Shown: piece by piece, positions 2,757 to 61,960 of the stretch
How positions within the stretch are numbered: the first letter of the stretch is position 1
Layout: each line of letters opens with the position of its first letter
From: Minisyncoccota bacterium
GTDB taxonomy: Bacteria; Patescibacteriota; Minisyncoccia; UBA6257; JAGOQP01
Direction: 5' to 3'
Assembly: GCA_041661795.1 (NCBI GenBank)
Contig: JBAZTS010000002.1
Location: forward strand, 36,263-100,262
Length of the DNA: 64,000 bases
Made by a program: the position numbers and the translations under genes
The notes under the pieces: generated by a model
Databases searched by the model: none
Told to the model about the DNA's origin: nothing
The model's input: only the letters and a program-made list of their open reading frames with translations

Positions 2757-4019
2757 ATTAACTGAAGAAATCTTTCCTTCCTTAAGAAGATAAACAACTT
2801 CTTCTTCTTTGTCGTAAACCCAGGATCCCGGGTTATTTTTTATAGTAAACTTGTTGGCCGGCTTATATATACTTAGGTCTGAAATATCCAGAGTTTTTGA
2901 GGAATAATCTATAATGAAATGAAACGAATCATCAAGCCACTCAATCTGCTTGGTTTTTAGGGCGTCTATTATCTCAATTTTCATAATTTCTCCTTTTTTC
3001 TTTTCCAGTGTTACAATTTCGTCTTCAATAAAATAAATAAACGACTTTCCGTCTTTATCCTGATAAAACACTTTCTTTTCGTCAGGAGATATTTTAGCTG
3101 TTTTACCTGAGTGAGCCAATTGGAAAAAATTCTCATCTTTATTATTATAAAACCATATGCTTCCGTCTTTTAATATAAACAGTTGATAATTTTGACTGAC
3201 ATCAATGTTTTCTATTTGATTTCCGTTGAACGGGAGTTTTATTCTTCTGGTTTCTTCAATTAAATTCAAATCAGTGGTGGTGATAAAAGAGTCGGTTGAT
3301 GTGGAATTTTTTTGTTTTGTTGGTAATTCCACCAAATAAAGATTATTTCTTGCCACTGTCATTTTTTCTAAAATTCCCTCTTTTATTGTTTTAAAACTCT
3401 GTTTATTTATGTCTATCCAATAAATCCCCGTAGAAGTCCTGACTATAATTTTGTTTTCTTCTTGAGGATAAATACGAATGTCTTCTATTTTTTGTCTAAA
3501 AAAAGAGGATATTTTTGAATTAAGATTTATTATATTCGGACTATTTAGATTGTATAAGTAATAAATATTCTTTTGGTCGTCCAGAACAATGATTCTCTTA
3601 TCTTTTTTATCTAAAATAATATTTCCCTTAACGTTGTCGATTAATTGTTGTTCATCTATTTTTTGAGGAGCAAGTATGACATTGGAGATTCTGGCAACCT
3701 GAGAAGGGAAAACTTCTATATTTTTTTCATAATCAAGATATCCCTCCTTTTTTAATTCAAGGCGGTATTTTTTAGGCAAGACATTGGAGATTAAAGTCCC
3801 TTTTTGGATTAACCCTAAAGAACTGTCGTATTTTTTATCATTAAGGAATATATCCAAAGATCTTGGTTGCGCCTCAACATAAACAGCCCCAGTTTTAGTG
3901 GCGCTTAGAGTGGAGAAATCAAATCTATATCCTTGGGAATAATAAATAACCCCGGTTCCTATCAATAGGAAAATGACCAAAAAAGAGTAAAAAAGTTTTC
4001 TTCTGAATGGCAGAGTCAT
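2745..4019 (-). CDS. Hypothetical N-terminally anchored protein, PEGA-like segment near N-terminus
   Basis: N-terminal TM (FYSFLVIFLLIGTGVIY); YRLELKKEGYLDYEKNIEV resembles PEGA; remainder unassigned. Confidence 0.45.
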   Translation of the reverse strand: MTLPFRRKLFYSFLVIFLLIGTGVIYYSQGYRFDFSTLSATKTGAVYVEAQPRSLDIFLNDKKYDSSLGLIQKGTLISNVLPKKYRLELKKEGYLDYEKNIEVFPSQVARISNVILAPQKIDEQQLIDNVKGNIILDKKDKRIIVLDDQKNIYYLYNLNSPNIINLNSKISSFFRQKIEDIRIYPQEENKIIVRTSTGIYWIDINKQSFKTIKEGILEKMTVARNNLYLVELPTKQKNSTSTDSFITTTDLNLIEETRRIKLPFNGNQIENIDVSQNYQLFILKDGSIWFYNNKDENFFQLAHSGKTAKISPDEKKVFYQDKDGKSFIYFIEDEIVTLEKKKGEIMKIEIIDALKTKQIEWLDDSFHFIIDYSSKTLDISDLSIYKPANKFTIKNNPGSWVYDKEEEVVYLLKEGKISSVNLSF

Positions 4020-8341: not shown

Positions 8342-8956
8342 ATGGCCATAAAAAAGGATTACTTGTTGGTGTCTCTTATTGGACTGCTCTTTGGGTTGTT
8401 CTCGGCTCCTATTATAAAAAATCTAAATCTCTCATTTTTACCTTTTAGCTGGGTCGCTGTCATTGTTATTGTTGTATTGTTTACTTTGGGAGCTCCCGTT
8501 GCTCTTTTTATAGCGTCTTTTGTCGGCAAGAAAATTCCTGTCATTTTTCAATTTGCCAAATTTGCGGCTGTTGGAGCATTAAATACATTCGTTGATTGGG
8601 GAATATTGAACTTTTTAATATTACTAACTGGAACTGTTACCGGAGTAGGTTTTAGTATTTTTAAAGGAATTTCTTTCCTGTTTTCTGCGTCTAACAGTTA
8701 TGTTTGGAATAAATTTTGGACTTTTGGAGCAACTAATAAAGAAAATTCAGGAAAAGAATTTGGTAAGTTTATTATTATTAGTTTGATAGGATTTCTAATA
8801 AATGTAGGAGTGGCTTCTTTCATAGTAAATTATATATCTCCCTTCGGTGGCTTTTCTTTGACTCAGTGGGCTAACTTAGGAGCTTTGGTGGCTACTTTAG
8901 TGGCTCTTGTCTGGAATTTTGTGGGTTATAAGTTCTTTGTGTTTGACAGTAAATAA
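8342..8956 (+). CDS. GtrA-family membrane protein
   Basis: FAKFAAVGALNTFVDWGILNFL GtrA signature; 4 TM. Confidence 0.7.
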   Translation: MAIKKDYLLVSLIGLLFGLFSAPIIKNLNLSFLPFSWVAVIVIVVLFTLGAPVALFIASFVGKKIPVIFQFAKFAAVGALNTFVDWGILNFLILLTGTVTGVGFSIFKGISFLFSASNSYVWNKFWTFGATNKENSGKEFGKFIIISLIGFLINVGVASFIVNYISPFGGFSLTQWANLGALVATLVALVWNFVGYKFFVFDSK

Positions 8957-9036
8957 AAAAGAGAGTATAATGCCTCTTGAGTGAAGTGCCGAGCAGCCCT
9001 CTGCGATGATATCGATAGAGGATTGCCCTTTCGTTT

Positions 9037-9067
9037 CCCTCCGCCCTCGGGCGGAGGGTTTTGTTTT
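9037..9067 (+). terminator. Rho-independent terminator (ccctccgccc tcgg gcggaggg + T-run)
   Basis: 10-bp GC stem, tetraloop, ttttgtttt. Confidence 0.6.
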
Positions 9068-9175
9068 CATATATGTTTTTTGTTATTATATTAGTGGTGG
9101 TGGGAGAGCACTCACTCATAATAAAAAAACGGAGGTCACCCCCGCCACCATGAAATATAAGGTTCTCATTTAGTT

Positions 9176-19477: not shown

Positions 19478-20668
19478 ATGAAATATCTTAGAAATGTCAA
19501 AATAGAAAAGATAAGAAACAAAACCTGCGTTTTAAGGTTGGGTTTGGATATAAAGGATGGTGAGTTAAAAAATTCGTTGAGAGTTATAAAATCTATCCCG
19601 ACACTCAAATTTCTATTAAAAAACGACTGCAAAGTAGTGATAATTTCACATCGAGGTAGACCTCAAGAGGGGAAAGAGGAAAGTGAAAAGAGGAAAGTGA
19701 AAAGAGAAGAAACTTTAAGATCATTTGTGGAGATTTTTGAAAAACTACTAAAAACAAAGATTAGTTTTGATGACTCTTTTGATTTTAAAAAGATGAGTGA
19801 AAAGATTAAAAAACTTCACTCAAAATCTATAGTTATTGTTGAAAATATAAGATTAGTAAAAGGAGAAAAGGATGATAACGATAAGCTAGGGAGAGAATTG
19901 GCTTCTTTGGGAAATTTTTATGTGAATGATGATTTTTCTACCAGTCACAGAAAAAACGCTTCTTTATGTGCGATAACAAAATTCACACCTTCTTATGTTG
20001 GCCTGCAGTTTGAAGAAGAAATAAAGAATTTAGACAAAGTTCTTAAAAATCAAAGGAAGCCAGTTGTTCTGATTGTAGGGGGAGTTAAATTGTCGGACAA
20101 AGTTGGCGTAATAAAAAATTTCTTAAACAAGGCAGATTATGTTTTGACCGGTGGGGGAGTTTCCAATACTTTCTTTGCTGCTAAAGAAATTCCAGTTGGT
20201 GATTCGTTAATTGATAAAGAAATGATGAAAATGGCAAAAACCTTACTTAAATCAAAAAAAATCATTTTACCCCAAGACGTTAGGATAAAAGGAAAATCTA
20301 TATTGGATATAGGGGATAAAACCATTGAAGAATATAAAAAAATAATAGAAAAAGCAGGGACTATTATTTGGGGTGGACCGTTAGGATATTTTGAGGACAA
20401 AAAATTTGCCAAAGGAACATTTGAAATAGCCAGAGCGATTTTAAAATCAAAAGCTTTTTGTGTTATTGGCGGCGGAGAAACTACAGTCGCCTTTCTTAAG
20501 GCAACTCGCGGACTTACACGGACTTCACGCAGAACTACGCGGAAAACAGTCAGCGTCAGTCAGCGTTCAGTCGGCGTTGGTCAGCGCTTGTTTCTGTCTA
20601 CTGGTGGAGGGGCAATGTTGGAATATCTAGCAGGTAAAAAATTACCGGCTTTGGAAGCGCTTAAATAA
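19478..20668 (+). CDS. pgk: Phosphoglycerate kinase with two in-frame low-complexity insertions
   Basis: VIISHRGRP, FSTSHR, GGGVSNTF, STGGGAMLEYLAGKKLPALEAL; insertions at 19670-19715 and 20511-20588. Confidence 0.9.
   Translation: MKYLRNVKIEKIRNKTCVLRLGLDIKDGELKNSLRVIKSIPTLKFLLKNDCKVVIISHRGRPQEGKEESEKRKVKREETLRSFVEIFEKLLKTKISFDDSFDFKKMSEKIKKLHSKSIVIVENIRLVKGEKDDNDKLGRELASLGNFYVNDDFSTSHRKNASLCAITKFTPSYVGLQFEEEIKNLDKVLKNQRKPVVLIVGGVKLSDKVGVIKNFLNKADYVLTGGGVSNTFFAAKEIPVGDSLIDKEMMKMAKTLLKSKKIILPQDVRIKGKSILDIGDKTIEEYKKIIEKAGTIIWGGPLGYFEDKKFAKGTFEIARAILKSKAFCVIGGGETTVAFLKATRGLTRTSRRTTRKTVSVSQRSVGVGQRLFLSTGGGAMLEYLAGKKLPALEALK
20511..20588 (+). repeat. In-frame GC-rich AGTCAGCG-octamer repeat insertion in pgk (encodes TRTSRRTTRKTVSVSQRSVGVGQR)
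   Basis: cagtcagcgtcagtcagcgttcagtcggcgttggtcagcg; same octamer family as lepA insertion arms. Confidence 0.55.
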
Positions 20669-22067: not shown

Positions 22068-22073
22068 CTTAAA

Positions 22074-22428
22074 AGATAAGTGAGTGATTGCCCTGACATT
22101 TGTTGGGGAGGAAAGTCCGGACTCCCATCTCCGACGTAACGTCGGAGTAAACGTATTCGCTAACAGCGAACTATCGCAAGATAAGAGGTGCGAACAGAGA
22201 CGAGTCCTAATGGAAACATTAGGGGTGAAACGGTCCCGACGCCTATTTCGGGTTAGGGACTCCGACATCCGCAAGGATCGTCGGAGCTAAATCCTTGCGG
22301 GGTGCAAGACCGTATCCGCCCAGGGCGGGTGAGTCGCTTGAACCTGAGAGTAATTGAAGGTCCAGACAAATAATCACTATCCCGACGTAACGTCGGGACA
22401 CAGAATCCGGCTTATAGCTTATCTAAAC
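22074..22428 (+). ncRNA. rnpB: RNase P RNA (bacterial type A)
   Basis: GGAGGAAAGTCCGGACTCC (P4 5' strand), AGGGGTGAAACGGT, ACAGAATCCGGCTTATAG (P4 3' strand), P1 pairing agataag/cttatct; GC-rich versus surroundings. Confidence 0.85.
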
Positions 22429-22500
22429 ATATCAAGAATCTCTCCTTAACGGGGGGATTTTTGATTGATTTATTAAGGGTTTTTTGATACTTTTAACAAG

Positions 22501-38168: not shown

Positions 38169-39272
38169 CTATTTTAGATTCTCTATTATAGCTATCTCAA
38201 AGGGCACCAAGGGGAAAGGATTGTATTTCATTTGGGAGTAGGCGGTGATGAGCGCTTTTATAAGTTTTATCTGCTCGTCCGTATCTATTTTAGCCGAATG
38301 TTTTTTTATTTCTTTTATTTGGCTTTCGGCCAATTCCTTTTCAAATATCTTTTCCAGTTCCGGATTAAGATGTAAAGAAAGAACCCTTCTTAAATATTCT
38401 GTCAGATCTTTGTTAAATTGAAAAAGATTGTATCCCTGACTGTTTATTTCGTATAAAAATTCCAGCGACTTTTGTAAGTCCTTTTTTATGACCAAATCGG
38501 CCATTTTTATTGTTTTTAGAAAATCAACTTTTCCCAAGATGCTTTCCACGTATTCAACGGTAATATTCTTGCCCTTCATGGAAACAATCTGGTCAAAAAG
38601 AGATTCGGCATCTCTTAAACTTCCTTCAGCTAAAAAGGCAATCATTTCCAAAGCTTCTTTTTCGTATTCTACTTTTTCTTCTTTGGCGATAAATGAAAGT
38701 TTTTTTATAATCTCCTGTAGTGTCAGCTTTCTAAAATGAAATCTCTGGGTTCGGGAAACAATAGTGGGAGGGAGCTTGTCGTATTCGGTGGTGGCTAATA
38801 TAAAAACGGCATGGGCTGGCGGTTCTTCTAAAGTTTTTAAAAGAGCGTTAAATGCCTGTGGAGTGAGCATGTGAACTTCATCTATGATAAAGATTTTGTA
38901 TTTAAGATAAGAGGGGAGTGTTTTTATGTTTTCTTTGAGATTTCTTATTTCATCTATTCCTCGGTTGGAAGCGGCGTCAATTTCAACGACATCCAAAGCT
39001 CTGCCTTCTTCAACTTGTAAACAGGCGTGACATTCTCCACAGGGCTCTCCTTGCTTGGCAAAGTTTTCGTCCTCTTGTCTTTTCTGGCAGTTAATTATTT
39101 TGGAAAAGATTCTGGCGATAGTTGTTTTGCCGGTTCCTCTTGAACCGTAGAAAAGATAGGCATGAGAAATTTTACCTTCCTTAACTGAATTTTGAAGTAT
39201 GGTAACCGTATTTTCCTGACCGTAAATATCAGCAAGTTTTTTTGGTCGGTATTTTCTATAAATAGCTAACAT
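38169..39272 (-). CDS. dnaX: DNA polymerase III subunit gamma/tau (short form)
   Basis: GSRGTGKTT Walker A, Zn module CGECHAC, DEVHML box. Confidence 0.9.
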   Translation of the reverse strand: MLAIYRKYRPKKLADIYGQENTVTILQNSVKEGKISHAYLFYGSRGTGKTTIARIFSKIINCQKRQEDENFAKQGEPCGECHACLQVEEGRALDVVEIDAASNRGIDEIRNLKENIKTLPSYLKYKIFIIDEVHMLTPQAFNALLKTLEEPPAHAVFILATTEYDKLPPTIVSRTQRFHFRKLTLQEIIKKLSFIAKEEKVEYEKEALEMIAFLAEGSLRDAESLFDQIVSMKGKNITVEYVESILGKVDFLKTIKMADLVIKKDLQKSLEFLYEINSQGYNLFQFNKDLTEYLRRVLSLHLNPELEKIFEKELAESQIKEIKKHSAKIDTDEQIKLIKALITAYSQMKYNPFPLVPFEIAIIENLK

Positions 39273-39278
39273 ATCAAT

Positions 39279-39309
<31 letters not shown>

Positions 39310-39334
39310 TAAAGAGCTATGAAATAAAAAAAGC

Positions 39335-39900
39335 CCGCCGGTGTCTTCCGAGGAAGTCCTGGCGGGGTGGAACAGGTGGTGCGACCTTAGCTCACTCGGT
39401 GCTGTCGAGTTCGCTCGCCCGATATACTCTCCGGGTGATACGAGAGCTCGAATCTGCCGAGACGTGACGCGTGGTCACTTTTTGCTAAGGTTTTTTGGGG
39501 TGCTGCTCCTCTTCCTGTTCGGTACTTTCTAAGAACGGTTCCCACACCGTTCTCGCCGGCGAGCTTAGCTCGCGCAGGGTAGAGGCGCCTCCTAAAGGAG
39601 GCAAAACATGAGTACAAATTCGGAATTGGATTTTTGTGAGTTTCCGGACTCACTATCTCGTTTGGTGCACCTCCCGAGAAGTCCTTTTCCTTCCACTTAT
39701 TATTGGGCCAGTTTGAGATCAGCGGTGGACACTCAAACTGTTTGCGTGCTTTCACCGAGCTTGCCGGATTTACTCGGATCTTTGGTGAGATGGCGCAACC
39801 CCACAGTTTTGACCTCCCTCAGCTGCGCGCGCAACTGAGTTGTCAGCTCACCTAGTGACAGAGGCCCCCTTTTTGACCGTTTTTTCTTCTTGGTCCGGAA
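39335..39900. ncRNA. GC-rich structured non-coding locus (one or two ncRNAs; minus-strand terminator at 39335-39378); identity unresolved, SRP RNA candidate by position upstream of dnaX
   Basis: GC content far above flanks, no protein-like ORF, multiple stems (gtttgag..ctcaaac, ccgag..ctcgg), ccccgccagg...ccggcgggc + T7 on minus strand. Confidence 0.35.
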
Positions 39901-40020
39901 GGGTTTCCGTGCTACATTTTTATGCCTGTATTATACTCCTTTTGTTTTATTTGTCAAGTACCCATAATAAAGTTCTAAAAACCTTGGAATTTAGTGTTTT
40001 TGGCTATATAATTAATTAGT

Positions 40021-40737
40021 ATGTTTGAAATGAAGTCGGTTGAGTTCTCTGGGCCCCTGGACAAGCTTTTGGAACTTATTGAGGGGAAAAAAATGGATAT
40101 AACCAGAATCAGTTTAGCCGAAGTGACGGCTGATTTTTTGACATATCTTAAAGACCTAACGCAGGCAAATCAAGAAAATAAAAATGACTCTCTTTCAAGA
40201 ATAATAGCTGATTTTTTAGTGGTGGCTTCTCAATTGATTTTGATAAAATCTAAAGCTATACTGCCCGAGATAGAACTTTCTGAAGAGGAAGAGGAGAGCA
40301 TTCAAGATTTGGAGAAACGCTTGGAGCTTTACAATCAAATCAAACCGATGTTGGCTGTCTTAAAAAAATCGTGGAAAGAAAACAGTCCCTCTTTTTCAAG
40401 AGAAATGTTTTCTTCAATACAACCGGTTTTCTATCCTCCCTTAAAAATTTCAATAAATGACTTAAAACTTTCACTGCAGTCGCTGGTTGATTCGCTGGGA
40501 TCATTTATTCTGGAAACGGAAAAGATAGAAAGACAAATATTTACGCTGGAGGAAAAAGTGGCAGAACTTTCCCAAAGAATTACAGATGGGATTTCAAAGT
40601 TTTCCCAGGTTATTTCAAAGAAATCAAGACAGGAGGCGATTGTTATGTTTTTAGCCCTGCTTCACTTGTTAAGAGATCAGGTTCTAAGAGTCAAACAATC
40701 GGAAATTTTTAAAGAAATAGAATTAGAAAGAGTATAA
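40021..40737 (+). CDS. scpA: Segregation and condensation protein A
   Basis: LDKLLELIE..KMDIT.ISLAEVT..FL.YL; FLVVASQLILIKSKAILP. Confidence 0.8.
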   Translation: MFEMKSVEFSGPLDKLLELIEGKKMDITRISLAEVTADFLTYLKDLTQANQENKNDSLSRIIADFLVVASQLILIKSKAILPEIELSEEEEESIQDLEKRLELYNQIKPMLAVLKKSWKENSPSFSREMFSSIQPVFYPPLKISINDLKLSLQSLVDSLGSFILETEKIERQIFTLEEKVAELSQRITDGISKFSQVISKKSRQEAIVMFLALLHLLRDQVLRVKQSEIFKEIELERV

Positions 40738-49698: not shown

Positions 49699-49926
49699 AT
49701 GGCTAGAAGAAAACCGGCAAGATCGATAACCATAGATAGGATGACAAGGATGATTTGCGGAGTGCTGATTCCGTCAATTATCCTTCCTCGACTACAAGAG
49801 GCGGAAGACATCGCCCTTCGGACTCTGGGGGCTTTAGGAAAGTCCCAGAGTGAAGCTCGTCATCTTTTCTGGGTGGCTATTGAGACACTCGCCAAGAGTG
49901 AGCAGATTTCCAACGGCACGCAATAG
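49699..49926 (+). CDS. GC-anomalous small ORF (75 aa) of unknown function; may instead be non-coding
   Basis: GGGGGA RBS; GC content well above flanks; 9-bp hairpin gactctggg...cccagagtg inside. Confidence 0.3.
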   Translation: MARRKPARSITIDRMTRMICGVLIPSIILPRLQEAEDIALRTLGALGKSQSEARHLFWVAIETLAKSEQISNGTQ

Positions 49927-49942
49927 ACAGCTCTTTCCAACT

Positions 49943-49975
49943 ATAGGCGCGGAACTTGTTCCGCGCCTTCTGCAT
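49943..49975. terminator. Terminator hairpin (ggcgcggaac ttg ttccgcgcc)
   Basis: Perfect 10-bp stem between 49699 ORF and convergent tgt. Confidence 0.55.
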
Positions 49976-54842: not shown

Positions 54843-54871
54843 TTGACTTATTAGTAATAATATGATATACT
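54843..54871 (+). promoter_or_regulatory. Near-consensus sigma70 promoter (TTGACT-N17-TATACT) driving GC-rich gene
   Basis: Hexamers and spacing; ~90 nt upstream of 54963 ATG. Confidence 0.45.
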
Positions 54872-54962
54872 CAAAACAAGTTTCGAAACCGCTTCACTGC
54901 CGTGAACAACACTACAGAAAGAGCGGTCGGAGCACTGCTCTTTCACAGAAAGGGGAACTTCG

Positions 54963-55361
54963 ATGAGTGGGATCGCTTGGTTTTTCGAGGTGTTCGCTCT
55001 GCTGTTTTTCGTGGGGACTCTGGGCGTTGCTTTCATCGGACGCCGCATCCTCAAGGCGGAGCAGGAGTCGTCGGTTCTGATGTCTTTCCTCCAGATCTGC
55101 AGTGGAGCGCTCTTCATCTTCTACGTTTTCGGACTGGGTCAACTCATGGCTCTGTCTGGACTGGAAGGTGCAAGGGCGCCCCGGTGGCTGATTCCGGGCA
55201 CCTACATCACTCTCACCATCTTCAGCGCGTTGACTCGGCTGGCTCTTCCAAGGTGGGGCAGTGACAACAAAGCGATGCAACTCTGGAGTGTCGTCAGCGT
55301 CCTGACGTTCCTACTCGGCACGTTCTGCCTCGGGGCGTACTCGTCCAACTACTTCGAGTAG
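54963..55361 (+). CDS. GC-anomalous (foreign-looking) 4-TM membrane protein, unknown function
   Basis: 132 aa, GC3-rich codons in an AT-rich genome, AGGGGA RBS, own terminator. Confidence 0.6.
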   Translation: MSGIAWFFEVFALLFFVGTLGVAFIGRRILKAEQESSVLMSFLQICSGALFIFYVFGLGQLMALSGLEGARAPRWLIPGTYITLTIFSALTRLALPRWGSDNKAMQLWSVVSVLTFLLGTFCLGAYSSNYFE

Positions 55362-55385
55362 GTCTCCTTCTTCAGCTCTTCAACT

Positions 55386-55421
55386 GGCGGCGTCTCTCAC
55401 GAGGCGCCGCACTGCTTTTTA
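55386..55421. terminator. Bidirectional terminator (gcggcgtctc tcac gaggcgccgc + T-run)
   Basis: GC stem between GC-rich gene and uvrC 3' end. Confidence 0.6.
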
Positions 55422-56684: not shown

Positions 56685-57245
56685 CTAGATTTTCTTTATA
56701 GTCCCCATTTTTCCTATTTCCAATATCTCCACGTATTCGTTTATTCTCATTTTTTCTAAATCTTCCACAAACTTTTTAGGAATTTTTATTTTTCCTATCC
56801 AGACACTTTTTTGCAACATTTCAAATCCAATATTCTTTACAGCTGATCTTAACCAAGCCCTCTTCCTTTTAAATTTTTCCGGAACATCAAAAGCTATCAA
56901 AATAACATTGTTTCCGGCTTCTTTCTTATAATCTAAAGCTGGAGATTGATTATTGGATACCCGGTTAATAAGTTTTTTGGCTTTTTTAGTAATCTTGATA
57001 ATCAACCCCTCTTTTTGTTCTATGAGTCCGTCTTTCTTAAGACGATAAATCATTACCCTATATCTGTTTCTTATTTTTTCTTTCTCTGTTTTGATAGTCT
57101 CATTTTTAGTGCCGATTCTATTTAAATTGTCTCTTAATATAGACGTTGAGCCCCAAGAGAATAAAAACGCTTCAAAAGCATTAGAGTATGTTTGTCTATC
57201 TACATTATTTAGAAAACTTATTGTTTCTCTATTTCTTGCCCTCAT
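56685..57245 (-). CDS. PaaX-like transcriptional regulator (wHTH + PaaX middle-domain-like fold)
   Basis: RLKKDGLIEQKEG wHTH; VILIAFDVPEKFKRKRAWLRSAVKNIGFEMLQKSVWIGKIKIP matches PaaX W..LV.S.PE..R..R..LR..L...GFG.LQ.SVWI. Confidence 0.55.
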   Translation of the reverse strand: MRARNRETISFLNNVDRQTYSNAFEAFLFSWGSTSILRDNLNRIGTKNETIKTEKEKIRNRYRVMIYRLKKDGLIEQKEGLIIKITKKAKKLINRVSNNQSPALDYKKEAGNNVILIAFDVPEKFKRKRAWLRSAVKNIGFEMLQKSVWIGKIKIPKKFVEDLEKMRINEYVEILEIGKMGTIKKI

Positions 57246-57417: not shown

Positions 57418-57570
57418 TTATGGGCGGTCCGGGATGGGTGGAGCGGGTGCGGGCTTGACCACTTTGGCCACGAGGCCGATTAATATGGTCAGCATTGAAA
57501 CGGGTACTACGGTGGCGATGATGACGGACGATTCCACCACCACCAGAGACCACTTGACTAGGTAGTGCAT
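57418..57570 (-). CDS. GC-rich tiny membrane protein (50 aa, MHYLVKWSLVVVESSVIIATVVPVSMLTILIGLVAKVVKPAPAPPIPDRP)
   Basis: AAAGGAGG SD; overlaps upstream ORF stop; followed by hairpin cggaccgc...gcggtccg. Confidence 0.4.
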   Translation of the reverse strand: MHYLVKWSLVVVESSVIIATVVPVSMLTILIGLVAKVVKPAPAPPIPDRP

Positions 57571-57689
57571 TCAACCTCCTTTCTTCTGAGAATCTTGGTG
57601 ATCCACAGATAGAGGTTGTATCCTGTTTGAATAACGTGGGCCATCTTTTGGCCCAGTATTGTCGTCCGATGAAACGTTGTTGTAGACAT
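57558..57689 (-). CDS. GC-rich tiny protein (43 aa, MSTTTFHRTTILGQKMAHVIQTGYNLYLWITKILRRKEVECTT)
   Basis: AAAGGAGACGTG-ATG SD; same frame as C-terminal part of listed ORF 57558-57860. Confidence 0.35.
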   Translation of the reverse strand: MSTTTFHRTTILGQKMAHVIQTGYNLYLWITKILRRKEVECTT

Positions 57690-57703
57690 CACGTCTCCTT
57701 TGG

Positions 57704-57949
57704 TTAGGCGATGGCGCCGGGGTATTCTTCGGAGATCTTCTCGATCTCTTTTTCCTCTTTCTTCACTTGGTCTGTGAGCACAAGGAAGAAAAAGATGATG
57801 GCCATGATTCCCACAAGAGTGGCAAAGGCCCATGAAAAGCTCTTGGGGAGTTGGAACCATCGTGATAAGTGATATCCTCCAAAAGTGAGAATTACCACGG
57901 CCACGGTCGCTCCAACTTTACGGAGCAAGTTGAGTAGTCCCGGGAACAT
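57704..57949 (-). CDS. GC-rich small membrane protein (81 aa, 2 TM)
   Basis: AGGAGG SD 6 nt upstream; hydrophobic helices. Confidence 0.5.
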   Translation of the reverse strand: MFPGLLNLLRKVGATVAVVILTFGGYHLSRWFQLPKSFSWAFATLVGIMAIIFFFLVLTDQVKKEEKEIEKISEEYPGAIA

Positions 57950-58193
57950 TACTCTCCTCCTTTTTGGTGTACATCTTTCGAAGTTTCTCCTGTAGAGCGT
58001 TGAGCCCCGTGAAGACCAGGGCTCCGGTCAGAAACCCGATACAAGCCAACGATCCTCGGATCTCCAATCCTGGAGGCAGTGGAACTCGGTCTGCCCATAG
58101 GACCGTGAAGAAACAGGAAGCAGCAGTTGAAAGGCCAACGAAAGTGAACCAAACCACTCTTGCGATCAACTCCAGAACTTTTCCGATTTTCAT
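57918..58193 (-). CDS. GC-rich small membrane protein (91 aa, 2-3 TM)
   Basis: GGAGGA SD 8 nt upstream; hydrophobic helices. Confidence 0.5.
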   Translation of the reverse strand: MKIGKVLELIARVVWFTFVGLSTAASCFFTVLWADRVPLPPGLEIRGSLACIGFLTGALVFTGLNALQEKLRKMYTKKEESNVPGTTQLAP

Positions 58194-58280
58194 GCTCTGA
58201 TCCTCCTCTGTTTTTCACATTATAATAATCATTGAATTTTGTCCATGTTTGATTTAGAATAACCCTTTGGTTGGCATTTT

Positions 58281-61411: not shown

Positions 61412-61443
61412 AAAAAGGGGGCTCCCGGTGTTGCTGGGAGCCC
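61411..61443 (-). terminator. Minus-strand terminator (gggctcccagcaacaccgggagccc + T7)
   Basis: Perfect stem followed by TTTTTTT on minus strand, ending GC-rich island. Confidence 0.5.
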
Positions 61444-61960
61444 AAAGTGCGGTAAGGAGGTCAATGTACGATGCGGTGCCTGCCGTGCGTCGCTTCGCTC
61501 GTTCGGGTCTTGGTGGTTCAGATCAGGGCCAGTCGTGCCCGAAAACTTAACTTTCTGGCCCATTGCTTCTCGGCACGCATGGTTTCTCCTTGCATGGATT
61601 TTTGGTCCACGCAGCTCTGCCCTCAGCGCTTGACGGTGGCCTCGTCGTTGGTGCGGTGGTTGTTCTGACGCTGTTGCATGGGATTTCTCCTCGCGTGAAC
61701 GTCGTCGGTTGTTGGTGCTAGCTATGGCTCAAGTCAAGCTTTCTTTTCGGTGAGCTTGACGAGCAGTGCTAGCGCCTGTTCTGGGTTTCGTTTTTTATCG
61801 GTATAACCTTCACAAGGTTATACCAGGGTTTCCTTCCTGATTGGCGGTCAAGAAGGTTGTTTAATCATCCAGCATTGTCCTAACTAACGGAACGGCGGTT
61901 CGACGTCCACGTGCATCGCTTTCCTCCTTATGTAGTTTACTTATTTCAGGATAAAACAAA
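61444..61960. other. GC-rich non-coding island (candidate structured RNA or degraded foreign DNA) in convergent intergenic region
   Basis: GC content well above flanks, stops in most frames, hairpins (ggtataacc..ggttatacc), possible minus-strand promoter TTGACT near 61950 and terminator at 61411-61443. Confidence 0.3.

What the first reader, a model, noticed from the sequence alone, without database searches (positions are those of the whole stretch)
39335..39900. 560-nt GC-rich, non-coding, highly structured locus just upstream of dnaX with a minus-strand terminator
GC content is far above the genome background. All ORFs there are short, Arg-rich and overlap on both strands. There are numerous perfect stems (e.g. 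gtttgag..ctcaaac, ccgag..ctcgg, cagctg..cagctg). On the minus strand the region ends in ccccgccagg...ccggcgggc followed by TTTTTTT, just before the dnaX start. The position matches the ffs(SRP RNA)-dnaX synteny of many bacteria, but no canonical helix-8 motif (GGUCC-GGAA-GGAAGCAGC) was found. Length suggests two RNAs or one large novel RNA.
Basis: partly seen in the sequence, partly recalled or inferred. Interest (0 to 1): 0.6.

Follow-up and report, generated by a model that had tools for sequence, protein, structure and literature searches.

The report
Orphan 600-nt structured RNA gene
Between dnaX and scpA of an uncultivated Paceibacterota (CPR) bacterium lies a self-contained unit (consensus promoter, about 598 nt of GC-rich, strongly folding, non-coding sequence, terminator) that matches no known RNA or protein family and is not SRP RNA; two relatives carry unrelated GC-rich sequences in the same slot.

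Summary
Window 39326-39923 is 52-57% GC in a 36% GC genome. It has no credible ORF and folds better than every shuffle.

I added two points. A perfect sigma-70 promoter (TTGACA-16-TATAAT, 39957-39930, minus strand) sits about 598 nt upstream of the minus-strand terminator, so this is one transcription unit, not two. dnaX has its own conserved proximal promoter (TATACT-N7-ATG, probably leaderless) after that terminator.

The SRP idea fails. No Rfam family matches at E<=10, ARAGORN finds no tmRNA, and 13 relatives have no Rfam family above gathering score upstream of dnaX.

No homolog of the RNA body was found anywhere I could search. The dnaX/scpA synteny is conserved in about 11 related lineages:
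- Two others (L083, L169) carry a 500-600-nt GC-rich, ORF-free, promoter-plus-terminator unit in the same slot and orientation, with no detectable sequence similarity to this one.
- L169 shares a 27/28-identical promoter.
- The other lineages lack the unit.

Best reading: a lineage-specific, strongly expressed structured non-coding RNA gene of unknown function, with no covariation support. Main rival: a remnant of GC-rich foreign DNA. Moderately interesting.

The parts
39930..39957 (-). Promoter of the RNA unit: TTGACA, 16-nt spacer AATAAAACAAAAGGAG, TATAAT (12 of 12 consensus positions).
   Evidence: It is one of only two perfect TTGACA-N16-18-TATAAT sites in the 64 kb window, where 0.07 are expected by chance. 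It is 27/28 identical to the promoter at the same locus in L169-L171.
39326..39923 (-). Predicted primary transcript of about 598 nt, 53% GC, A-rich and U-poor, with no credible ORF. The transcription start is inferred at about 7 nt past the -10 box.
   Evidence: No Rfam match. The largest ORFs have no protein homologs.
39326..39367 (-). Intrinsic terminator: bulged GC-rich hairpin (39367-39333) followed by U7 (39332-39326).
   Evidence: Read directly. It is the 3' hairpin in the MFE and centroid folds.
39587..39602 (-). Hairpin GCCUCCUUUAGGAGGC, in which an anti-SD-like sequence pairs with an SD-like one. On the plus strand the same bases form the AGGAGG in front of the homolog-less 76-aa ORF.
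   Evidence: L169 (CCUCCAUUUUGGAGG) and L083 (AACCUCUAAGAGGUU) have similar hairpins. This may be chance.
39709..39740 (-). Perfect 9-bp stem CAGUUUGAG/CUCAAACUG, one of the many local hairpins.
   Evidence: I4.
39818..39839 (-). Spacer-less palindrome CUCAGUUGCGCGCGCAGCUGAG, a hairpin with a self-complementary GCGC centre.
   Evidence: I3.
39279..39309 (-). Heptamer repeats (TTTATAC x4) that contain the dnaX-proximal promoter. TATACT ends 7 nt before the ATG, so the dnaX mRNA is probably leaderless.
   Evidence: D1. The TATACT-N7-ATG arrangement recurs in L083, L089, L090 and L091.
38169..39272 (-). dnaX (367 aa), the gene immediately downstream of the terminator and co-oriented with the RNA unit.
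39984..40012 (+). Divergent scpA promoter (TTGGAA-17-TATAAT), placed back to back with the RNA promoter. scpA starts at 40021.
   Evidence: The -35 region is conserved in L084.

Best explanation
This is an autonomous gene for a non-coding, highly base-paired RNA of about 598 nt. A consensus sigma-70 promoter (39957-39930, minus strand) starts transcription near 39923. The transcript folds into a chain of GC-rich hairpins joined by A-rich linkers and is released at an intrinsic terminator (39367-39326). dnaX begins 54 nt after the terminator's U-tract and is then read from its own proximal promoter.

The RNA belongs to no described family and is not SRP RNA. It is lineage-specific. Among relatives with the same dnaX/scpA synteny the whole module (promoter, RNA, terminator) is either absent or replaced by a GC-rich module of similar size and unrelated sequence.

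Shown here: the anatomy, the non-coding status, the excess folding energy, the absence of homologs and the patchy distribution.

Inferred: that the RNA is abundant and stable, and that it acts in trans as a regulatory or scaffold/sequestering RNA. In size and layout it resembles multi-hairpin regulators such as S. aureus RNAIII. Its function would then depend more on its structure and local loops than on a conserved primary sequence.
For: **Transcription signals**
- The promoter is a perfect 12/12 match and one of only two such sites in 64 kb.
- The other perfect site also drives a short GC-rich, ORF-less unit with a terminator. RNase P RNA and a tRNA also carry TTGAC(T/A)-type promoters.
- The terminator sits at exactly the 3' edge of the GC-rich block.

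**Folding and composition**
- MFE z = -3.5 with 0 of 100 shuffles as good. A coding control gives +0.5.
- GC is 53% against a 36% background, the same level as this genome's RNase P RNA.
- The transcribed strand has A 29% and U 18%, like RNase P RNA.

**Not coding**
- No gene call in the gap and no codon periodicity.
- No homolog of either main ORF and no Pfam or PHROG hit.
- No frame is interrupted by only one kind of stop codon.

**Positional analogues**
- L083 carries about 610 nt with its own TTGACA-17-TATACT promoter and terminator, z = -9.3.
- L169 carries about 495 nt behind a 27/28-identical promoter.
- Both lie on the dnaX strand and lack ORFs.
- Aligning L169 with its closer relative L174 shows the whole module is present or absent, while the dnaX-proximal promoter is retained.

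**Argument from mutation bias (inference).** In a 36% GC genome, a neutral insert old enough to have lost all sequence similarity should also have lost its GC excess.
Against: **No comparative support**
- No homolog of the RNA body exists in the data I could reach, so there is no covariation evidence.
- The only other copies are 100% identical.
- The three positional analogues share no k-mers or motifs beyond chance. A conserved function is therefore unproven.

**Weak RNA-specific signals**
- The plus strand folds even better (z = -5.6). The RNase P control shows the same inversion, so the strand cannot be called from z-scores.
- The MFE fold has almost no GNRA or UNCG tetraloops, whereas RNase P RNA has three. 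Several stems are spacer-less palindromes, which could equally be DNA-level features.

**Alternative origin.** The same genome holds other GC-rich islands that are clearly coding and look foreign, so GC richness alone does not mean RNA.

**No expression data.**
Confidence: 0.55

Rival explanations
1. It is a remnant of horizontally acquired GC-rich DNA: a decayed small-gene cassette or other foreign fragment lodged in a permissive intergenic slot. It is transcribed, but the RNA itself has no function.
For: - The window contains several other GC-rich islands with their own promoter and terminator that do encode small, mostly membrane, proteins.
  - 54963-55361: GC3 = 0.74.
  - 57420-58215: four SD-led ORFs.
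  - About 49699-49927.
- Even the coding island at 55 kb gives z = -5.6, so strong folding is not exclusive to RNA genes here.
- The distribution is patchy and the inserts at the same slot in relatives are unrelated.
Against: - There is no trace of a reading frame. No periodicity, stops of all three kinds in every frame, and no protein similarity for the longest ORFs.
- The perfect promoter and the terminator lie exactly at the two edges, and the same layout recurs in L083 and L169.
- The unpaired linkers are A-rich and the strand composition matches RNase P RNA.
- A decaying neutral insert should drift towards 36% GC (inference).
Confidence: 0.2
2. It is a sequence-independent cis element. 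A long, strongly transcribed, GC-rich unit placed between the divergent scpAB and dnaX promoters would act through transcription itself (supercoiling coupling, promoter insulation, or terminator-controlled read-through into dnaX), not through the RNA product.
For: - In all three lineages the unit is co-oriented with dnaX and directly upstream of it. Its promoter is back to back with the scpA promoter, 44-125 nt from the scpA ATG.
- Bodies differ completely while size, GC content and layout are kept. This fits a role that does not depend on sequence.
Against: - dnaX keeps its own conserved TATACT-N7-ATG promoter downstream of a strong terminator. Most relatives manage with a 97-291-nt gap and no element.
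- The extreme folding (z = -6 to -9 in L083 and L169) is not required for such a role.
- No riboswitch-like conservation exists.
Confidence: 0.13
3. It encodes one or more very small proteins. Candidates are the 23-codon GUG frame preceded by GAGGGAGG on the minus strand (about 39804-39733) and the 76-aa plus-strand ORF 39608-39838 with AGGAGG-7-ATG. Under this reading the structured RNA is an mRNA or a dual-function RNA.
For: - SD-like motifs lie at correct spacing before both frames.
- A neighbouring GC-rich island (61415-61950, minus strand) carries three SD-led mini-ORFs of 9-20 codons.
- RNAIII-type RNAs combine a peptide with a regulatory RNA (my own knowledge).
Against: - The 76-aa ORF is on the strand opposite the promoter and terminator and has no homolog or family.
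- No codon periodicity.
- I count only two AUGs in the 598-nt transcript by eye, and neither follows an SD.
- The plus-strand AGGAGG is simply one arm of a hairpin.
Confidence: 0.07
4. It is a highly divergent or expanded SRP RNA (ffs), or another universal RNA (tmRNA, 6S), in the classical position upstream of dnaX.
For: - It has the same orientation and adjacency to dnaX as ffs in many Firmicutes (my own knowledge).
- No SRP RNA was found elsewhere in the 64 kb window.
Against: - No hit to any SRP, tmRNA or 6S model, even at E<=10. ARAGORN is negative.
- The 598-nt length is wrong for these families.
- The sequence is not conserved in relatives that must also need SRP RNA.
Confidence: 0.02

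Closest known systems
SRP RNA gene ffs upstream of dnaX (Rfam RF00169 / RF01854)
   Same: It is a stable-RNA-type gene immediately upstream of dnaX and co-oriented with it, with its own promoter and terminator.
   Different: No helix-8/domain IV motif and no covariance-model hit at E<=10. At 598 nt it is far longer than the 80-280 nt of bacterial SRP RNAs. It is not conserved in relatives.
Large ornate bacterial ncRNAs (OLE about 600 nt, ROOL about 580 nt, GOLLD, raiA, HEARO)
   Same: Size class of about 600 nt. GC-rich in an AT-rich genome, ORF-free and with excess predicted structure. This is how the GC-rich-intergenic-region approach finds such RNAs (PMC11109978, PMC8723152). ROOL, GOLLD and OLE form RNA-only homo-oligomers (PMC12286853). 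Here several hairpins have self-complementary centres (GCGC, UGCA, CCGG).
   Different: No Rfam hit to any of them. Those families are defined by conserved sequence and covariation across many genomes, whereas this RNA has no detectable homolog at all. It has very few GNRA tetraloops.
Staphylococcus aureus RNAIII (514-nt multi-hairpin regulatory RNA); comparison from my own knowledge
   Same: It is a 500-600-nt transcript with its own promoter and intrinsic terminator, built as a string of hairpins. It is fast-evolving and has possible C-rich single-stranded stretches, such as the ACCC loop at about 39898-39895 and CACCACCUGUUCCACCCC before the terminator. A possible tiny ORF is present.
   Different: No sequence relationship. 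No target complementarity beyond chance was found in the window. No quorum-sensing context. The tiny ORF is unsupported.
Other GC-rich islands in the same genome (54876-55450, 57376-58215, 61415-61950)
   Same: They have the same GC excess, their own promoter-like and terminator-like ends, sizes of about 550-850 nt and strongly negative folding z-scores.
   Different: The 55 kb and 58 kb islands have clear SD-led ORFs with high GC3. The target has none. Only the 61.4-61.9 kb island is similarly ORF-poor, and it shares no significant sequence with the target.

Membership tests
Bacterial SRP RNA (ffs; RF00169, RF01854) | Domain IV / helix 8 with a GNRA tetraloop and conserved symmetric and asymmetric loops, as scored by the Rfam covariance models. 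| tested here: not met
   No SRP hit at gathering score or at E<=10 on 39200-40050. None at E<=1 in the whole window.
Bacterial SRP RNA (ffs; RF00169, RF01854) | Length of about 80-280 nt. | tested here: not met
   The distance from promoter to terminator gives about 598 nt, with no internal promoter or terminator on the minus strand.
Bacterial SRP RNA (ffs; RF00169, RF01854) | Universally conserved, so orthologues are expected in close relatives. | tested here: not met
   Relatives at the same locus have no element or an unrelated one. Thirteen related loci show no Rfam family above gathering score upstream of dnaX.
Bacterial SRP RNA (ffs; RF00169, RF01854) | Common synteny: upstream of dnaX and co-oriented with it. 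| tested here: met
   The synteny rule itself comes from my own knowledge. It is a frequent association, not a defining feature.
tmRNA | tRNA-like domain plus a tag-peptide reading frame. | tested here: not met
   ARAGORN finds no tmRNA in the window. No Rfam tmRNA hit.
6S RNA | Rod of about 180-200 nt with a central bubble, as in Rfam RF00013. | tested here: not met
   No hit. The MFE fold is multi-branched, not a rod, and the length is three times too great.
OLE / ROOL / GOLLD / raiA / HEARO large ncRNAs | Match to the family covariance model (conserved core sequence and structure). | tested here: not met
   No hit at E<=10.
Group I / group II introns and small ribozymes | Catalytic-core covariance models. 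| tested here: not met
   No hit at E<=10. The locus does not interrupt a gene.
Generic bacterial ncRNA gene (independent transcription unit) | Own promoter and intrinsic terminator bounding an ORF-free segment. | tested here: met
Generic bacterial ncRNA gene (independent transcription unit) | Conserved secondary structure supported by compensatory changes. | not testable with these tools
   No diverged homolog is available. The only other copies are 100% identical.
Generic bacterial ncRNA gene (independent transcription unit) | A detectable transcript of the predicted size. | not testable with these tools
   No expression data are accessible.
Protein-coding gene or pseudogene | A reading frame with codon periodicity or homologs. 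| tested here: not met

The most novel reading that the evidence does not exclude
The dnaX-scpA gap of these Paceibacterota may be a promoter-anchored slot for exchangeable RNA cassettes. A conserved strong promoter (TTGACAAATAAAAYAAAAGGAGTATAAT, identical at 27 of 28 positions in two lineages whose ScpA proteins are only 55% identical) drives GC-rich, hyper-structured, non-coding payloads of about 500-600 nt. Each payload ends in its own terminator. They are replaced or diversified so fast that no sequence similarity remains. This would be a new kind of hypervariable RNA locus, for example decoy, immunity or host-interaction RNAs of an episymbiont.
Probability: 0.12. Interest if true: 0.75.

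Novelty: new member of a known kind. Interest (0 to 1): 0.45.

Why it matters
CPR/Patescibacteria have tiny genomes and almost no experimentally characterised non-coding RNAs beyond the universal ones. A reduced genome that keeps a 600-nt, strongly promoted, ORF-free, highly folded transcript suggests a function worth finding.

The more unusual point is evolutionary. Three lineages hold equally large, equally GC-rich but unrelated sequences in the same slot and orientation, and two of them share a near-identical promoter. If that pattern holds across many genomes, it would point to one of two things. Either the RNA's function depends on structure rather than sequence, or there is a cassette-exchange mechanism for RNA genes. 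Neither has been described in this phylum as far as I could find: three full-text literature searches returned nothing relevant.

If it turns out to be decaying foreign DNA, the finding is ordinary.

Tried and rejected
**Known RNA families: none match**
- Rfam gathering scan and E<=1 scan of the whole window, and an E<=10 scan of the locus.
- Rfam scans of relatives' elements found nothing meaningful.
- ARAGORN for tmRNA: none.

**Coding tests: all negative**
- ORF list, codon periodicity and stop-codon types, to check for recoding.
- Protein searches with the 122-aa and 76-aa ORFs: zero hits.
- Pfam and PHROGs: nothing.

**Search for homologs of the RNA body: none found**
- nhmmer/blastn against the window itself and against the loci fetched by each search (80; 179): only self hits.
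- blastn in 'distant' mode against phages and plasmids: no match.
- Exact-pattern scans of viral contigs with the promoter and with three 20-22-mers: no match.

**Comparison of the positional analogues: nothing beyond chance**
- Pairwise MAFFT and blastn.
- Shared k-mer and motif counts among the elements.

**Tests that proved uninformative**
- Calling the strand from folding z-scores. The RNase P control also folds 'better' on the wrong strand.
- GC content of paired against unpaired positions. The result is the same as in shuffles.
- Tetraloop census: few GNRA or UNCG loops.

**Other ideas rejected**
- Trans-target complementarity within the window: only chance-level matches of 14 nt or less.
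- Replication origin: GC skew and gene orientation do not switch here.
- MITE or IS: no terminal inverted repeats seen by eye at the element's edges and no other copy in the window.

**Other**
- Literature searches for CPR large ncRNAs found nothing relevant.

**Limitation.** The single genome-collection scan and the single metagenome scan were both spent on dnaX synteny. The RNA body and the 28-nt promoter could therefore not be pattern-searched in those collections.

Full report

Yes. The window averages 35.9% GC. Across 39300-39900 the 200-nt windows reach 47.5-56.5% GC.

The region lies in a 748-nt gap between two divergent genes:
- a 367-aa gene on the minus strand (38169-39272);
- a 238-aa gene on the plus strand (40021-40737).

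On the source contig (ENA ERZ27249449, k141_214873, 156 kb, labelled Candidatus Paceibacterota) these are DnaX and ScpA by their Pfam domains, followed by ScpB. No gene was called in the gap.

The segment folds better than all shuffles on both strands:
- minus strand: -212 against -184.9 +/- 7.7 kcal/mol, z = -3.5;
- plus strand: z = -5.6;
- a dnaX coding control gives z = +0.5.

**2. Anatomy**

A perfect sigma-70 consensus promoter, TTGACA-16-TATAAT, lies at 39957-39930 on the minus strand.
- It is one of only two perfect sites in 64 kb, where 0.07 are expected by chance.
- The other site (8943-8971, plus strand) also drives a short GC-rich, ORF-less unit that ends in a terminator and has no convincing Rfam match.
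- RNase P RNA and tRNA-Gly in this window also carry TTGAC(T/A)-type promoters.

Transcription should start near 39923. It should end at the bulged hairpin 39367-39333 plus U7 (39332-39326). That gives a single RNA of about 598 nt. One search shows no internal minus-strand promoter or terminator, so 'one large RNA' is preferred over 'two RNAs'.

The transcribed strand is A-rich and U-poor (A 29%, U 18%), like RNase P RNA in the same genome.

Downstream of the terminator are four TTTATAC heptamers. They contain a TATACT box ending 7 nt before the dnaX ATG. The same TATACT-N7-ATG arrangement occurs in L083, L089, L090 and L091. I therefore infer that dnaX has its own conserved promoter, probably producing a leaderless mRNA, and that the GC-rich unit is a separate gene rather than a dnaX leader.

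**3. Coding or not?**

All evidence points to non-coding.
- ORFs of at least 30 aa that lie within the region run 33-122 aa and overlap on both strands.
- No frame shows codon-position GC periodicity. By contrast a neighbouring GC-rich ORF has GC3 = 0.74.
- No frame is interrupted by only one kind of stop codon, so recoding is not indicated.
- The 122-aa minus ORF has no homolog among 5.8 billion proteins. Neither does the 76-aa plus ORF, which has a perfect AGGAGG-7-ATG.
- Neither has a Pfam or PHROG match.
- The plus-strand SD is simply one arm of the GCCUCCUUUAGGAGGC hairpin.

**4. Known RNA families**

Rfam 15 at gathering thresholds finds only RNase P RNA (22072-22430) and two tRNAs in the window. 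Permissive scans of the locus (E<=10) and of the whole window (E<=1) add nothing relevant. ARAGORN finds no tmRNA. SRP RNA, tmRNA, 6S, OLE/ROOL/GOLLD/raiA/HEARO and group I/II introns are therefore tested and not met.

The ffs-dnaX analogy rests on position alone. Thirteen related loci show no Rfam family above gathering score upstream of dnaX.

**5. Relatives**

The nearest species representative (L001, DnaX 73%) has a different upstream neighbour. The closest ScpA in the large protein collection is only 64% identical. No near relative exists, and the only other copies of the locus are 100% identical.

The divergent dnaX/scpA synteny is nevertheless conserved. I sampled about 11 lineages:

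| Locus | dnaX-scpA gap | GC-rich unit |
|---|---|---|
| window | 748 nt | present |
| L083 | 756 nt | present |
| L169-171 | 845 nt | present |
| L084/85 | 291 nt | absent |
| L086/87 | 131 nt | absent |
| L173 | 97 nt | absent |
| L174 | 262 nt | absent |
| L176/177 | 125-134 nt | absent |
| L172 | at least 230 nt (contig end) | none seen |
| L168, L178 | another gene (peptidase M3 in L168, unannotated 595-aa gene in L178) | absent |

The L083 gap holds a unit of about 610 nt at 54% GC on the dnaX strand. It has its own TTGACA-17-TATACT promoter and a terminator, no ORF and no Rfam hit. Its folding z is -9.3.

The L169 gap holds a unit of about 495 nt at 54% GC with a terminator and no ORF. 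Its z is -7.5.

The three bodies share no detectable similarity:
- MAFFT and blastn give only chance hits;
- no shared 8-mers, and shared 5-7-mers are at the level of shuffles.

Yet the promoter of L169 is identical to that of the window at 27 of 28 positions, spacer included. Identity starts one base upstream of the -35 box (a shared C) and stops at the -10 box.

Aligning L169 with its closer relative L174 (ScpA 76%) shows that the whole module (promoter, RNA and terminator) is present or absent, while the dnaX-proximal promoter is retained.

Other co-oriented RNA genes sit upstream of dnaX in more distant relatives: a 280-nt GC-rich unit in L090 and a tRNA in L089. A 600-nt GC-rich ORF-free island lies near dnaX in L109.

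**6. Interpretation**

The best-supported reading (confidence about 0.55) is a lineage-specific, strongly expressed, structured non-coding RNA gene.

Shown: the anatomy and the non-coding status.

Inferred: that the RNA is stable and acts in trans as a regulator or scaffold. The closest functional analogy I can name is a multi-hairpin RNA of the RNAIII type. This is an analogy from my own knowledge, not a membership claim.

One argument for selection is that a neutral insert in a 36% GC genome should lose its GC excess by the time all sequence similarity is gone. This too is inference.

Evidence against:
- no covariation;
- almost no GNRA or UNCG loops, unlike RNase P RNA;
- several stems are spacer-less palindromes;
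- the 'wrong' strand folds better, although the RNase P control shows the same effect;
- the same genome holds GC-rich islands that are plainly coding and probably foreign, one of which also folds strongly.

Rivals:
- transcribed remnant of foreign DNA (0.20);
- sequence-independent cis element between the divergent promoters (0.13);
- tiny-protein or dual-function gene (0.07);
- divergent SRP, tmRNA or 6S RNA (0.02).

**7. Novelty and limits**

As it stands this is a new, orphan member of a known kind, the bacterial structured ncRNA candidates found as GC-rich intergenic regions (PMC11109978, PMC8723152). It is not a demonstrated new class.

The most novel reading not excluded is a promoter-anchored, exchangeable or hyper-diversifying RNA cassette slot (probability about 0.12).

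The main limitation is that the single genome-collection scan and the single metagenome scan were both used for dnaX synteny. The RNA body and the 28-nt promoter could be pattern-searched only in viral contigs, where nothing was found.

Decisive tests are strand-specific transcript mapping, an exhaustive nucleotide and covariance-model search followed by R-scape, and a census of what follows the conserved promoter across Paceibacterota.

Noticed in passing
window 8943-9075 (+): The only other perfect TTGACA-17-TATAAT promoter in the window drives a GC-rich, ORF-less unit of about 95 nt. It ends in the terminator CCCTCCGCCCTCGGGCGGAGGG plus a T-run. No convincing Rfam match (best E = 0.66). It is a candidate small RNA. 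A 7-codon SD-led ORF (MKYKVLI) follows at about 9151-9174.
   Followed up: partly
window 61415-61950 (-): A second GC-rich (52%), ORF-poor island with a promoter-like site (TTGACT-17-TATCCT, 61976-61948) and a terminator hairpin plus T-run at about 61415-61445. It folds strongly (z = -6.3). It carries three SD-led mini-ORFs of 9, 17 and 20 codons. No significant similarity to the target.
   Followed up: partly
window 54844-55421 (+): A GC-rich (54-60%) cassette with its own promoter-like site (TTGACT..TATACT) and terminator. It encodes a 132-aa protein that looks like a four-helix membrane protein (GC3 = 0.74). No Pfam or PHROG match. It looks horizontally acquired. Its mRNA strand folds far better than shuffles (z = -5.6 against -0.4 for the opposite strand).
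   Followed up: partly
window 57420-58215 (-): A GC-rich operon of four small SD-led ORFs (91 aa, 81 aa, about 43 aa, about 50 aa), mostly hydrophobic. It sits next to a PaaX-like protein with a Cas2-like domain (56685-57245, PF20803, E = 1e-11). The function is unknown.
   Followed up: partly
window about 49699-49970 (+): A small GC-rich ORF with SD AAGGGGG and a terminator hairpin (aggcgcggaac..gttccgcgcct). It is another compact GC-rich cassette.
   Followed up: no
window 20426-20650 (+): A GC-rich stretch inside the 396-aa ORF 19478-20668. It contains repetitive gtcagcg-like units and looks like an in-frame insertion in a housekeeping gene.
   Followed up: no
window 39273-39280; L083 about 2053-2065; L089, L090 and L091 about 2480-2503: dnaX is preceded by TATACT exactly 6-7 nt before the ATG, with no SD, in five lineages. 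This suggests a conserved leaderless dnaX mRNA in this clade.
   Followed up: partly
L109 1320-1925: A GC-rich (53%) island of about 600 nt with no ORF over 98 aa. It has promoter-like and terminator-like ends and lies near dnaX in a Patescibacteria contig (FLOH01000200.1). It folds strongly (z = -6.7) and is unrelated in sequence to the other elements. Its U-rich composition differs from theirs, so its strand and nature are uncertain.
   Followed up: partly
L090 2190-2472 (+): A GC-rich, ORF-free unit of about 280 nt with a promoter-like site and a strong terminator, about 30 nt upstream of the dnaX ATG. It has no meaningful Rfam match; the only sub-threshold hit (NsiR1, E = 0.11) covers just its terminator hairpin. 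It is another uncharacterised RNA gene co-oriented with dnaX.
   Followed up: partly
L089 2310-2398 (+): ARAGORN calls an 89-nt tRNA-Asn (unusually long) directly upstream of dnaX and co-oriented with it. This shows the position commonly hosts stable-RNA genes.
   Followed up: no
L083 567-926 (-): A bAvd / 23S_rRNA_IVP-family gene, the kind of accessory protein found in diversity-generating retroelements, lies directly downstream of dnaX in the relative that carries the 610-nt element. No reverse transcriptase is visible on the 6.2-kb contig.
   Followed up: no
L084 about 3873-3892: A perfect 20-nt palindrome (cctgcctgccggcaggcagg) sits in the short dnaX-scpA gap of a relative that lacks the large element. 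A small hairpin plus T-run lies just upstream of dnaX.
   Followed up: no
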